Of a stretch of 64,000 nucleotides of DNA, positions 12,001-15,000 are shown piece by piece. Origin of the DNA: Escherichia coli O157:H7. GTDB taxonomy: Bacteria > Pseudomonadota > Gammaproteobacteria > Enterobacterales > Enterobacteriaceae. Every line of letters begins with the position of its first letter. Within the stretch, counting starts at the first letter, position 1. The stretch lies in NCBI RefSeq assembly GCF_013167455.1, contig NZ_CP038328.1; one strand, given 5' to 3'. Position numbers: made by a program.

Positions 12001-15000
12001 TCGGCCTGTTCTTCAGTGCATGGGGCGTGCCGGAACCAGTCAGATTTGAATGCATGAGAACGCCGCCCGTGCCTGCTGGCAAAGACGGCTGAATTATCAG
12101 AATTGTGTAGTCTGGAATTTTGCGCCATCGGCTTTCTCCGGTGGCACAGTGTTACTCAACAGGGGTTCAGCCCTGCGCTGAATTGTAGATGAATTCACTA
12201 ATCTTCAAAAGCAGAAAAACCAGCCTTAATCCCAGCTTCTTTCAGAGACGGCAACGATGTGACAAATTCATTTGCACGCAAAATAAAACCATCCGTCACA
12301 AGCCCATCCACAAAATGAATTAACGCAGCTCCACTCTTCCTTTGTTGAGACTGTAAACATTTAATACGGCAGTGGCTGACAATAGCGCCCTTCTCAACGC
12401 GCACAGTATAGAGGCCATCTTCACTAAAAATTTCACGTAATTCTTCGATTCTCATCAACAGAATCCTTTCTGAACCGCCCCGGGTTTCCTGGAGAGTGTT
12501 TTATCTGTGAACTCAGGCTGCCAGATCATCGTTTCCGATGGAAGCATAATAAGCTTTTTCTGCTTCTGCCGGAGGAGTATGGCCCAGCCTTCCCAGCAAT
12601 CGTCGATTGTTATACCAGTCCACCCACGTTAGTGTGGCCAGTTCCACTTCTGCACGGTTTTTCCAGCTCTTACGGTGTATTACCTCCGCTTTGTAAAGAC
12701 CATTGATGCTCTCAGCCATCGCGTTGTCATACGAGTCGCCTGTACTCCCTGTTGATGCCAGTAATCCGGCTTCTTTTAGTCGCTCCGTATAGGCCAGTGA
12801 CACATACTGAGAGCCTTTATCGCTGTGATGGATGGTGCCAGACGGACGACGGGCCCACAACGCCTGCTCCAGCGCATCCAGCACGAATGTCGTTTCCATA
12901 GACGATGAGACCCGCCACCCCACGATGTATCCGGCAAACACATCAATGATAAACGCCACATAGACGAAGCCCTGCCATGTGCTGACGTAAGTAAAATCAG
13001 CCACCCACAGCTGGTCAGGTCGTTCTGCCACGAACTGACGGTTTACGCGGTCGCCTGCGGCAACGGCTTTCCGGCTGATGGTCGTACGGACCTTTTTACC
13101 CCGGAGAACACCGGCAAGTCCCATAACCGCCATGAGACGTGCCACTGTACATCTGGCCACCCTGATTCCTTCCCGTAACAACTGACGCCAGACTTTACGC
13201 ACACCGTACACCTGATGATTTTCATCGTATACGCGCTGTATCTCTCTCTTCAGCCAGTCGTCGTGCTGCGCACGGGCACTGCGTTTATCCGGATGATGTC
13301 GCTGTTGCTGACAATGGTAATACGTTGACGGGGCAATATGCAGTTCGCTGCATACCGGTCCGACCCCGTACTGCTCACGCAGCTTATCCAGCAGTGGCAT
13401 CATTTTTTCCAGAGGCGGTCGAACTCCGCCTTCGCAAAATAAGCGGAAGCCTGGCGAAGGATATCGTTACTGCGGCGCAGTTCACGATTTTCACGTTCCA
13501 GCTCTTTCAGACGCTGACGTTCAGCGCTGGTGAGCCCACCATCACCGCCCCCGGTATCCCGCTCATGCTGGCGAACCCAGACACGCAGAGTCTCCGGCGT
13601 ACAGCCAATCTTTGGGGCAATGGAACAAATTGCCGCCCACTGTGAGTCATATTCATCCTGACTTTCCAGAACCATACGAATCGCCCGCTGACGGACTTCG
13701 GGGGAAAAACGAGTATTTTTAGTCATCCTGTTTACCTCTTTCTCAGGGAGTTTAGTCTCCAGGATTTCCGGGGCGGTTCATCCAGATAAATAGCACTCCC
13801 CTGTTCGGGGTCCATCCCTCTTCTCCCTGCGCGCTACTTAAGTATTTTTGATTCTATTCCGGCGCCGTCCGGAACTTCAAACGCGTTGAAAATAAAAACA
13901 AAAACCCGCCGAAGCGGGTTAAGTGCGGGTGCGTTGAGGATGCCTGACACATCAGAGGTGGCGAGGGATTTCTCCCCCGCCTGGTCTCTTACTCCTCAGG
14001 TTCGTAAGCTGTGAAGACAGCGACCTCCGTCTGGCCGGTTCGGATTCGTACCTCGCAGAGGTCTTTCCTCGTTACCAGTGCCGTCACTATGACGATTAAA
14101 CAGATGACGATCAGGGCGATTAACATCGCCTTTTGCTGCTTCATAGCCTGCTTCTCCTTGACCTTTCGGTCCGTAAGAGGCAATCTATATGTGACGAGCA
14201 TATAGGGGCCTCACTTCGATTTATAGTCGGGTGGGGCTTTTATCTATCTGCCGTTGGTGTTCATGCCCGAGGCAGATAGCCTCAAGCACCCGCAGCAATC
14301 CTACTTAACTCTGCCGTTACAGCAAACCGTTTTCGCCCGATATGGGAATTCCCATATCGGAATGAATTCAGTTCACCTGGCGAGGCTTAGCGTACAATTT
14401 TTTCCGTTTTGTGAGCTGCCCCTACATGCCGCTGGCGCGGCATCCGGAAAAAGAATCCACGTCCTGAAGGACGAGGATGTCAAGTGCCTTTCCTGGTCCA
14501 GCCATATTTTTTGAATGCAGGCGCCGCTTCATCGGTTTGTAGCCATTCTGCAAATCGACGGGTTTCATCATTTGCATCCTGACGTACTGTAATGTTCATA
14601 TCACGCCATATCACGTAGTCTGGCGCTATTTCCACGACATCACCAATTTCTGGATTACTGGCTGCCCAGTCAGCCCAGGTTATCCAGACATCTGCTCCAG
14701 GCTGATTCTCAAGAGCCTTACGTGCAGTTCCGCTATTGGGCGCATATAAAATAATATTTTTTCGGATTGCGGCGACAGTTTCTATATTCCCTTTACGTCC
14801 GGCAATATCTTCCCAGACGCCAGTGCCTGATGTATTACTGGTACCACCACCATCATTAACAATTACGCCAATCCCAGGTCTGGTCAGGTCGTCAATACTC
14901 CGGATATTTTTAGGATTACCTTTCTTTACCAGTAAAATACTTTTTCGCAGATAAAGAGGCTGAATATCTTTTTCACTGAAGCTGTCTTTATGGTCCCGAA

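What the first reader, a model, noticed from the sequence alone, without database searches (positions are those of the whole stretch)
13891..14440. Complete hok-type toxin locus in the prophage with a 24-bp perfect palindrome in its leader
Hok (51 aa) with an in-frame upstream mok-like extension, a 3' terminator, and a leader containing CCGATATGGGAATTCCCATATCGG (14337..14360), which could be the leader hairpin or a Sok promoter element. IS629 is inserted about 110 bp downstream of the hok terminator.
Basis: partly seen in the sequence, partly recalled or inferred. Interest (0 to 1): 0.4.

Follow-up and report, generated by a model that had tools for sequence, protein, structure and literature searches.

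The report
Prophage hok/sok locus beside KilA-N fossil
This is an ordinary, intact hok/sok toxin-antitoxin locus in an E. coli O157-type prophage; the 24-bp palindrome is not part of it but is a leftover of a deleted neighbouring KilA-N gene, a family whose coding sequences carry a conserved, apparently undescribed hairpin at that position.

Summary
The sequence features exist as described: Hok (51 aa), an in-frame Mok extension (70 aa), a 3' terminator, a perfect 24-bp palindrome at 14337..14360, and IS629 (12471..13780) about 110 bp beyond the terminator. The locus is a complete hokD/hokW-type type I toxin-antitoxin module. Rfam sok scores 103.9 bits and Pfam HOK_GEF 77 bits. A Sok-like antisense gene, tac/fbi 5'-3' pairing and the refolding switch after 3' truncation are all present in silico. 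It is 85.7% identical to the experimentally validated hokW-sokW.

The palindrome is not in the leader and is not a sok promoter element. It lies at -46..-69 from the hok transcription start, and 64 of 80 related hok loci lack it. It is a roughly 45-nt fossil of a KilA-N gene that sits head-to-head with hok in about 117 E. coli genomes; here about 480-507 nt between them were deleted.

Following the palindrome showed that KilA-N genes across bacterial phyla carry a covarying hairpin/dyad at this codon position: 9 of 9 pairs change on both sides, and 84.9% of cells pair versus 29-44% in slid registers. I found no description of it. The hok locus itself is already known; the KilA-N element is the interesting by-product.

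The parts
13896..14291 (-). Predicted full-length hok mRNA (about 396 nt)
   Evidence: The 5' end is set by alignment to R1, hokC and hokW and by the start of the Rfam sok/leader model. The 3' end is the terminator. The fold has z = -7.6 and is closed by 5'-3' pairing.
14298..14326 (-). hok promoter: -35 TTTGCT (14326..14321), 17-nt spacer, -10 TAGGAT (14303..14298)
   Evidence: Read from the sequence. Position is conserved in 933W, SCPM9504 and other hokD loci, which have TAGAAT as the -10. Activity was not tested.
14280..14293 (-). tac element (GCGGGUGCUUGAGG) at the mRNA 5' end
   Evidence: Pairs with fbi in the MFE of the full-length RNA. Pairs locally with nt ~52-59 (AAGCCCC) once the 3' end is removed.
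13989..14201 (-). mok-like ORF (70 aa), in frame with hok
   Evidence: The N-terminal extension MLVTYRLPLTDRKVKEKQA aligns with MokC (MLNTCRVPLTDRKVKEKRA) and MokW.
13989..14144 (-). hok toxin ORF (51 aa), HokD-type with T17I
   Evidence: Pfam HOK_GEF 77.2 bits against a cut-off of 22. Annotated hokD in RefSeq genomes. One residue differs from HokD WP_000813254.
14193..14248 (+). Predicted Sok antisense RNA (about 53-59 nt): 5' single-stranded tail, stem-loop, U-rich tail
   Evidence: Positional equivalent of the annotated sokC (K-12) and sokW (933W). The fold is like SokC, z = -3.9. The 3' end is approximate.
14158..14186 (+). Predicted sok promoter: -35 TTGACC (14158..14163), 17-nt spacer, -10 CAATCT (14181..14186)
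   Evidence: Aligns with the sokW/sokC promoter region. K-12 sokC has TTGACC/CACTCT and 933W has TTGCCT/TAACCT. Activity was not tested.
13925..13939 (-). fbi element (CCUCAACGCACCCGC), complementary to tac
13890..13920 (-). Intrinsic terminator of hok mRNA (stem 13920..13903 plus T run)
14337..14360 (.). Perfect 24-bp palindrome CCGATATGGGAATTCCCATATCGG, at -46..-69 from the hok start
14330..14373 (+). Roughly 45-nt relic of a KilA-N gene (reads ..FSPDMGIPISE*IQ..), antisense to hok
   Evidence: Flank similarity to KilA-N genes extends beyond the palindrome. It is collinear with the intact KilA-N/hok arrangement in L214 and E. coli strain 222, and the window lacks about 480-507 nt between the two.
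12471..13780 (-). IS629/IS1203 (1310 bp; orfA 13400..13726, orfB 12513..13403, ALIL frameshift pseudoknot)
   Evidence: Absent at this site in O157:H7 PV15-279. Inserted 9-10 nt upstream of the rem start codon, outside the hok transcript.
14460..15238 (-). paa (AcfC-family adhesin) and its terminator (14473..14460), upstream neighbour

Best explanation

By analogy with R1 hok/sok and Sp5 hokW-sokW, it should work as follows.
- A weak promoter makes a stable, roughly 396-nt hok mRNA. Pairing of its 5' tac with its 3' fbi keeps it inert.
- Slow 3' trimming removes fbi and the 5' end refolds.
- mok, and through translational coupling hok, then become translatable, unless the short unstable antisense Sok RNA (plus strand, about 14193..14248) pairs with the mok initiation region.
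- When Sok is depleted, Hok inserts into the inner membrane and kills or lyses the cell.

Shown here: the sequence elements, their homology and the predicted folds. Inferred: promoter activity, toxicity and biological role (prophage maintenance, or aid to lysis at induction as shown for hokW).

The 24-bp palindrome is not part of this machinery. It is the centre of a roughly 45-nt fossil of a KilA-N gene that in related prophages lies head-to-head with hok. A deletion of about 480-507 nt removed the KilA-N promoter and first ~55 codons, and the 3' part of the gene was also lost. It is a perfect palindrome because KilA-N genes carry a conserved hairpin/dyad at exactly these codons.
For: hok/sok identity
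- Rfam RF01794 scores 103.9 bits (gathering score 59) over 14142..14291.
- Pfam HOK_GEF scores 77 bits.
- Mok homology to MokC and MokW.
- The full-length fold has z = -7.6 with tac-fbi closure. The truncated RNA refolds its 5' end onto nt 52-59.
- The Sok candidate folds like SokC and maps onto the annotated sokC and sokW.
- The locus is 85.7% identical to 933W hokW-sokW, which was shown experimentally to be a type I TA system (PMC8621323).
- 560 E. coli records match the 721-nt query spanning this locus at >=99% identity; the listed hits annotate it as hokD next to paa.

Palindrome as a KilA-N fossil
- It lies at -46..-69 from the hok start.
- The plus-strand translation is FSPDMGIPISE*IQ, and 12 of 14 flank nucleotides match KilA-N genes.
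- In L214 a 95.6%-identical hok lies 355 nt from an intact KilA-N gene, and the window matches collinearly on both sides of a gap of about 507 nt.
- The intact arrangement occurs in 117 E. coli genomes, in the same prophage slot.
- 64 of 80 hok loci sampled without bias lack the palindrome, and some relics carry a 1-nt deletion or mismatches.

KilA-N hairpin.
Against: - Neither transcript has been observed here. The TSS and the Sok ends are set by homology only.
- The sok -10 (CAATCT) and the hok -10 (TAGGAT) are weaker matches to consensus than in hokW (TAACCT, TAGAAT). The generic promoter scan did not call either promoter.
- The Sok region is 21 nt shorter than in hokW and other hokD loci, so hokW results may not transfer exactly.
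- According to the literature summarised in bioRxiv 10.1101/2025.08.07.668861, chromosomal hok loci tested earlier did not mediate post-segregational killing.
- The palindrome is still perfect in hundreds of genomes. That is compatible with recent origin but does not exclude a retained function.
Confidence: 0.82

Rival explanations
1. The locus looks intact but is functionally silent or attenuated. Its promoters (hok -10 TAGGAT, sok -10 CAATCT) are weakened, and like other chromosomal hok loci it gives no post-segregational killing, so it is a passenger in a degrading prophage.
For: Both -10 hexamers are poorer than in hokW. The generic promoter scan finds neither. The prophage carries IS629 insertions. 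Earlier work, as summarised, found chromosomal hokA/B/C unable to mediate PSK.
Against: All RNA elements and ORFs are intact, with no frameshift or stop. K-12 sokC has the same promoter type (TTGACC/CACTCT) and is annotated as an expressed sRNA. The 721-nt query spanning the locus matches 560 E. coli records at >=99% identity. The close relative hokW-sokW is active.
Confidence: 0.15
2. The palindrome has been co-opted as a cis-regulatory site for hok. It would be a dyad operator centred at -57.5, where a dimeric activator or repressor (for example a KilA-N protein from another prophage) could act on the hok promoter.
For: The centre lies at a class-I-like position. The dyad is perfect and has a fixed spacing to hok in most relic-bearing loci (centre 55-56 nt from the mRNA start in 57 contigs). 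It derives from an element that is under strong selection in KilA-N genes.
Against: Most hokD/W loci, including the validated hokW, lack it. Some relics are decaying. The fixed spacing is explained by a single ancestral deletion. No KilA-N gene of this subfamily was found in the 64-kb window, and the close KilA-N DNA gave no O157:H7 record among the 25 listed of 225 matching records. KilA-N loci carry no second copy near their own promoters, so nothing suggests the dyad is a promoter operator.
Confidence: 0.06
3. One reading: the palindrome is a hairpin in the hok mRNA leader, or part of the sok promoter.
For: As RNA it would fold into a stable hairpin (-18 kcal/mol), and it lies close to the locus.
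Against: It lies 46-69 nt upstream of the conserved mRNA 5' end, and that 5' end must pair with fbi. The sok promoter lies between the mok and hok start codons. The palindrome is absent from most family members.
Confidence: 0.02
4. The palindrome serves as a terminator or insulator that stops read-through from paa, or from the early-right operon, into hok.
For: A stable hairpin lies about 100 nt downstream of the paa terminator. Stand-alone copies elsewhere often sit 3-23 nt after stop codons.
Against: No T/U run follows it on either strand, and the terminator scan does not call it. The same relic occurs upstream of hok in prophages without paa.
Confidence: 0.04

Closest known systems
hokW-sokW (mokW) of Stx2 phage 933W / Sakai prophage Sp5
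   Same: Same family and same kind of host (a lambdoid O157 prophage). 85.7% DNA identity over the unit. Hok is 51 aa and identical in 46 of 51 residues. Same tac, fbi, mok and Sok position. Experimentally a type I TA system that aids lysis and phage release on induction (PMC8621323).
   Different: The window's Sok region is 21 nt shorter. The sok promoter is TTGACC/CAATCT rather than TTGCCT/TAACCT. The Hok C-terminus is HokD-like (TAYEPEE versus VDYESEK). The prophage and genomic position differ. hokW has no upstream palindrome.
K-12 hokD (relF) in the Qin prophage
   Same: The toxin is nearly identical (one substitution, T17I) and RefSeq names the window gene hokD.
   Different: K-12 hokD matches only from 14158 downstream (96.6% identity). 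It lacks the promoter, tac, the mok start and sok. The window copy is full length.
K-12 hokC/mokC/sokC (gef)
   Same: The mok extension and the short sok region/promoter type (TTGACC, CAnTCT) resemble the window. sokC is annotated and maps to the same relative position.
   Different: The toxin is more diverged. The K-12 locus has IS186 immediately downstream, and its 3' region does not align with the window's fbi. In the window IS629 is 110 bp beyond the terminator and leaves the mRNA intact.
Plasmid R1 hok/sok (parB)
   Same: Same architecture: in-frame mok, the conserved leader core (GCUUGAGGCU.UCUGCCUC), Sok antisense to the mok start, and 5'-3' closure. The R1-type tac GGCGCUU pairs with AAGCGCC, and the window's GGGUGC..UUGAGG pairs with CCUCAA.GCACCC, so changes occur on both sides.
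   Different: Only distant DNA similarity, with no blastn hit from the window. Plasmid versus prophage. R1 function (post-segregational killing) is proven.
KilA-N domain genes (PF04383) of prophages
   Same: The palindrome and about 10-15 nt on each side match the codons ..LSxDMGIPISELIQ.. of a KilA-N subfamily, in the orientation and position seen where the gene is intact next to hok.
   Different: Only about 14 codons remain, with a stop codon. It is a fossil, not a gene.

Membership tests
[quoted passage not shown] | Small hydrophobic Hok/Gef toxin ORF | tested here: met
   Pfam PF01848 HOK_GEF 77.2 bits (cut-off 22), residues 6-47.
[quoted passage not shown] | mok: upstream-starting overlapping ORF to which hok translation is coupled | tested here: met
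   70-aa in-frame ORF from ATG 14201. The N-terminus is homologous to MokC and MokW. The R1-type locus is also in frame. Coupling itself was not tested.
[quoted passage not shown] | Conserved hok mRNA leader structure | tested here: met
   Rfam RF01794 full-length match, 103.9 bits versus a gathering score of 59.
[quoted passage not shown] | cis-antisense Sok RNA overlapping the mok start, with a 5' tail and a terminator hairpin | tested here: met
   Plus strand 14193..~14248 folds like SokC and coincides with the annotated sokC/sokW positions. A compensatory change in the stem relative to SokC can be read.
[quoted passage not shown] | Active sok and hok promoters (Sok in excess and unstable) | not testable with these tools
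   Only hexamers can be read: sok TTGACC-17-CAATCT, hok TTTGCT-17-TAGGAT. The consensus scan calls neither.
[quoted passage not shown] | tac-fbi long-range pairing, and refolding after 3' processing | tested here: met
   In silico only. The MFE of the 396-nt RNA pairs nt 1-12 with 13939..13927. The RNA truncated at 13941 pairs its 5' end with nt ~52-59.
[quoted passage not shown] | Toxicity / post-segregational killing | not testable with these tools
   Shown for the relative hokW (PMC8621323), not for this allele.
   Palindrome at -46..-69 from the hok start. Sok promoter at 14158..14186. Absent from 64 of 80 family members.
Intrinsic terminator | GC-rich hairpin followed by a U run | tested here: not met
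   No T run on either strand. Not called by the scan.
KilA-N gene (PF04383) | Intact ORF encoding the domain | tested here: not met
   Only about 14 codons are recognisable, with a stop (FSPDMGIPISE*IQ). tblastn E is only 0.04. It is a relic.
KilA-N gene (PF04383) | Derivation from a KilA-N gene: synteny and orientation as in intact loci | tested here: met
   Collinear with L214 and E. coli strain 222, where KilA-N and hok are head-to-head. The window has a gap of about 507 nt between the two matches.
IS629/IS1203 (IS3 family) | 1310-bp element with terminal inverted repeats, orfA/orfB and a frameshift pseudoknot | tested here: met
   Ends TGAACCGCCCCGG.../...CCGGGGCGGTTCA at 13780 and 12471. 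ORFs. ALIL pseudoknot 121.5 bits.

The most novel reading that the evidence does not exclude
The palindrome is the fossil of an undescribed, widely conserved nucleic-acid element: a covarying 9-13-bp hairpin/dyad at one fixed position inside the coding sequence of KilA-N domain genes of phages and bacteria from many phyla. The element constrains the encoded peptide (DMGIPIS, DIGIPIS, DTGIPVS, SVRGIPRT, EVRKSTSA and others), and in some genes the same DNA is read in another frame. It would be a cis-acting site, such as an autoregulatory target of the KilA-N protein on DNA or mRNA, or a replication/recombination hairpin. Stand-alone copies, including the one at -46..-69 of this hok promoter, might still be recognised in trans.
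Probability: 0.45. Interest if true: 0.6.

Novelty: already known. Interest (0 to 1): 0.35.

Why it matters
The hok/sok part confirms that O157-type prophages carry full-length hokD-type modules, unlike the truncated K-12 hokD. It gives exact coordinates for the unannotated mok, sok, tac and fbi elements, which is useful for annotation and for anyone extending the hokW-sokW induction/lysis work to other prophages.

It also corrects a tempting misreading: a striking perfect palindrome next to a regulatory RNA locus turns out to be a gene fossil.

The by-product could matter more. KilA-N is a very widespread phage DNA-binding domain of poorly understood function. A strongly covarying hairpin embedded in its coding sequence is a concrete, testable handle on how these genes are regulated or mobilised.

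Tried and rejected
- Palindrome as terminator: rejected, no U run.
- Palindrome as part of paa: rejected, because the same relic precedes hok in prophages without paa.
- Palindrome as a mobile mini-insertion into KilA-N genes: rejected for the main subfamily, because palindrome-less homologues have the same segment length (AQTGMPEHQ versus RDMGIPISE).
- Chance or peptide-driven DNA identity: rejected. Only 3 of 576 codings are palindromic, only 1.1e-4 of random heptapeptides are palindrome-compatible, there are frame-shifted copies, and there is compensatory variation.
- Operator with extra copies near the KilA-N promoter: no second copy in 34 loci. Stand-alone copies usually have no KilA-N gene within about 5 kb.
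- Sense-mRNA signature: G:U 14 versus A:C 27, so no support. Whether the element acts as DNA or RNA is unresolved.
- RNAalifold on the whole 165-column codon alignment returned no structure, probably because of register shifts between subfamilies. Column-wise counts and the MAFFT DNA alignment were used instead.
- Rfam has no family at the palindrome or in intact KilA-N genes.
- Literature searches for the sequence, for 'KilA-N'+'palindrome' and for 'KilA-N domain'+'stem-loop' found nothing specific.
- blastn from the window did not reach R1 hok/sok. The R1-type locus was fetched by protein search instead.
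Full report
OBSERVATION

Read on the minus strand, the region contains the following.
- A 51-aa ORF (14144..13989), MKQQKAMLIALIVICLIVIVTALVTRKDLCEVRIRTGQTEVAVFTAYEPEE, nested in a 70-aa in-frame ORF that starts at 14201.
- A terminator hairpin at 13920..13903 followed by a T run.
- The perfect palindrome CCGATATGGGAATTCCCATATCGG at 14337..14360. It is unique in the window even with 3 mismatches, and none is expected by chance.
- IS629/IS1203 at exactly 12471..13780 (1310 bp). It sits about 110 bp beyond the terminator and 9-10 nt upstream of the rem start. It is absent at this site in O157:H7 PV15-279.

What is wrong is the placement of the palindrome 'in the leader'.

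CONTEXT

The window is an E. coli O157:H7-type lambdoid prophage. The gene order is replication genes, paa (AcfC-family adhesin), hokD, rem, ydfU, rusA and Q, and the same block is deposited as phage 'PPompW'. The 721-nt query spanning the locus matches 560 E. coli records at >=99% identity, and 4722 of 5426 genomes hold some hok relative. K-12 hokD aligns only from 14158 downstream, so it is the known truncated copy without promoter, tac, mok start or sok. The window copy is full length.

WHAT THE LOCUS IS

- Rfam's sok family (RF01794) matches 14142..14291 end to end at 103.9 bits against a gathering score of 59. The match is on the hok-sense strand and runs from the mRNA 5' end to the hok AUG, so the model in effect describes the leader.
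- Pfam HOK_GEF scores 77 bits.
- The Mok extension MLVTYRLPLTDRKVKEKQA is homologous to MokC and MokW. In the R1-type locus mok is likewise in frame.
- Alignment with 933W hokW/mokW/sokW, K-12 hokC/mokC/sokC and an R1-type hok places the mRNA start at 14290/14291, the -10 TAGGAT at 14303..14298 and the -35 TTTGCT at 14326..14321.
- The Sok equivalent lies on the plus strand from 14193 to about 14248. Its promoter is TTGACC (14158..14163), a 17-nt spacer, then CAATCT (14181..14186). K-12 sokC has the same type (TTGACC/CACTCT).
- The Sok candidate folds like SokC: a 5' tail, a stem-loop and a U-rich tail, with z = -3.9.
- The full-length 396-nt mRNA folds with z = -7.6. Its first 12 nt (tac, GGGUGCUUGAGG) pair with CCUCAACGCACCC (fbi, 13939..13927).
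- After removal of the last ~45 nt, the 5' end instead pairs locally with nt ~52-59. This is the classical hok activation switch.
- The locus is 85.7% identical to hokW-sokW of 933W/Sp5. That system was shown experimentally to be a type I TA system whose toxin rises and whose Sok falls on mitomycin C induction, helping phage release (PMC8621323).
- Differences from hokW: a 21-nt shorter Sok region (hokC-like), different sok hexamers, and Hok T17I with a HokD-type C-terminus.

All of this is homology and in-silico folding. Transcription, toxicity and role are inferred.

THE PALINDROME IS NOT PART OF hok/sok

It lies at -46..-69 from the hok start, upstream of the -35, and about 150 nt from the sok promoter. 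933W hokW shares the hok unit from 'AAAACGGTTTGC' (window ~14333) onward but has unrelated sequence where the palindrome would be.

I sampled 80 hokD/W-type loci using the conserved mRNA 5' end, so the sample is independent of the palindrome.
- 64 have nothing resembling the palindrome within 130 nt upstream.
- 6 have the perfect 24-mer.
- 8 differ at one position.
- 2 have a 1-nt deletion in one arm.

WHAT THE PALINDROME IS

- The 20-bp core occurs in at least 120 viral contigs, 77 of them next to hok.
- The 18-bp core occurs 54 times in 100,044 species genomes, against about 4 expected. Half of these lie inside ORFs with the Pfam KilA-N domain.
- On the window's plus strand the palindrome and its flanks read ..FSPDMGIPISE*IQ.., matching the KilA-N motif ..LSxDMGIPISELIQ... 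DNA similarity extends about 9 nt to one side and about 15 nt to the other (12 of 14 flank bases), then stops.
- In viral contig L214 and in 117 E. coli genomes (for example strain 222), an intact KilA-N gene lies head-to-head with a hok locus, 95.6% identical to the window's in L214, in the same prophage slot.
- The window matches L214 collinearly on both sides but lacks about 480-507 nt, comprising the KilA-N promoter and its first ~55 codons. The rest of the gene beyond ~17 nt is also gone.
- All relic-bearing hok loci share the same short distal flank (GAACTGAATTCATT) and then diverge, so one ancestral event explains the fixed spacing to hok.

The palindrome is therefore a roughly 45-nt KilA-N gene fossil at 14330..14373, antisense to hok.

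BY-PRODUCT: A CONSERVED HAIRPIN INSIDE KilA-N CODING SEQUENCES

Three samples of KilA-N genes were collected with peptide patterns that are independent of codon choice. They show that the palindrome is selected at the nucleic-acid level.
- Only 3 of 576 codings of DMGIPI(S) are palindromic, and only 1.1e-4 of random heptapeptides are palindrome-compatible at all. Yet most distinct DMGIPIS genes use exactly the palindromic codons while neighbouring synonymous sites differ.
- Variants stay symmetric while changing amino acids: GATATCGGAATTCCGATATC, GATACCGGAATTCCGGTATC, GAAACCGGAATTCCGGTTTC, GCGGTCGGAATTCCGACCAC and GATGCGGGAATTCCCGCATC.
- Distant subfamilies have unrelated inverted repeats at the same place, such as CGTTCGGGGAATCCCCCGAACG, CCGAAGTGAGAAAAAGCACTTCGG and CGAAGTAAGAAATCTTACTTCG.
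- Bacteroidota genes hold the same DNA in another frame, encoding YGNSHIA.
- In a protein-guided codon alignment of 64 sequences (90% de-duplicated), the best hairpin of the 163-nt segment is centred within +-6 nt of this site in 47 (P = 3e-36). In the fixed register 6.7 of 9 positions pair, against 1.0-2.7 when slid.
- The formal count on alignment A7 gives 9 of 9 pairs with changes on both sides. 84.9% of cells are paired against 29-44% when slid. The covariation score is 0.366 against 0.135 +- 0.014 in shuffles, with 0 of 500 reaching it.

Caveats.
- The sequences are related to one another.
- A7 is a MAFFT DNA alignment.
- There is no G:U excess (14 versus 27 A:C), so DNA versus RNA is unresolved.
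- No second copy lies near the genes.
- Stand-alone copies (about 27 in the genome set, some extended to 40-46-bp perfect palindromes) usually have no KilA-N gene nearby and often sit just after stop codons.

Rfam has no matching family. My literature searches found no description; the only co-mention concerns KilA-N mRNAs of eukaryotic viruses used as a clustering example. The function is unknown. An autoregulatory target of the KilA-N protein, or a replication/recombination hairpin, are guesses.

VERDICT

The hok/sok locus is real, complete and of an already known kind, closest to hokW-sokW and a full-length version of K-12 hokD. The palindrome is real but was misassigned: it is a KilA-N gene fossil and is dispensable for hok. 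Interest in the finding as stated is low. It is raised somewhat by the KilA-N coding-region hairpin to which the palindrome led.

Noticed in passing
L180-L422 (KilA-N genes from viral contigs); L126-L179 (genomes); window 14337..14360 is the fossil: KilA-N domain genes (PF04383) from many phyla carry a covarying hairpin/dyad at one fixed position of the coding sequence, in the codons between the RLKxT and QGTW motifs. 9 of 9 pairs change on both sides, 84.9% of cells pair versus 29-44% slid, and 47 of 64 genes have their best hairpin there. In Bacteroidota the same DNA is read in another frame. Not in Rfam, and no paper was found.
   Followed up: partly
L028/L052, L170, L174, L133, L141, L151, L012, L019, L037, L039, L046, L078, L145/L146, L164-L166: There are stand-alone copies of the core palindrome in unrelated phage and bacterial genomes (GC 25-57%). 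They are often 3-23 nt after a stop codon and sometimes extended by their flanks to 30-46-bp perfect palindromes. Usually no KilA-N gene lies within about 5 kb. One phage contig (IMGVR_UViG_2788499883_000003) has both a KilA-N copy and a stand-alone copy. Whether these are relics or functional sites is not known.
   Followed up: partly
window 14142..14291 (-): Rfam's 'sok antitoxin' model (RF01794, 157 positions) matches the hok-sense strand, from the mRNA 5' end to the hok AUG. In effect it models the hok leader rather than the Sok RNA strand, so strand calls from this family should be read with care.
   Followed up: yes
window 14205..14250: The Sok/target region is 21 nt shorter than in 933W hokW and most hokD loci and resembles K-12 hokC. 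The Sok stem shows a compensatory G-C to A-U change relative to SokC. The sok -10 reads CAATCT because of a 1-nt deletion relative to TAACCT.
   Followed up: partly
window 14004..14006 (Tyr47 codon, context CUUACGAA): The Hok Tyr codon lies in a UACG context. Papers report TadA A-to-I editing of the equivalent Tyr codon in hokB, and say similar editing occurs in hokC/D/E (text seen). The site is preserved here. Hok also carries T17I relative to K-12 HokD.
   Followed up: no
window 12468..12470 and 13781..13783: IS629 is inserted 9-10 nt upstream of the rem start codon, separating rem and the downstream nin/Q genes from upstream transcription. The flanking 3-bp repeat is imperfect (GGA on one side, GAA on the other) compared with the empty site in PV15-279.
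   Followed up: partly
window 13899..13980 (-): The hok 3' UTR plus terminator gives a sub-threshold Rfam match to isrK, a Salmonella prophage-island sRNA (24.9 bits against a gathering score of 50, E = 0.003). The same is seen in L214. It is probably mostly the terminator.
   Followed up: no
window 7591..8202 and 50875..51609: Other RNA features in the window: STnc100 (175 bits), AgvB (anti-GcvB sRNA, 56.6 bits) and two tRNAs in the prophage late-regulatory region. Further along there are three RtT repeats with tRNAs, a tyrT-type chromosomal locus.
   Followed up: no
L002 ~2925..3000, L004 2906..3010, many loci: In most other prophages the hok promoter directly follows the stop codon of a small hydrophobic ORF (about 35 aa..AIAAVMAIYCLAVVLMDRLSD-like). 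Here that position is taken by paa plus the KilA-N relic.
   Followed up: no
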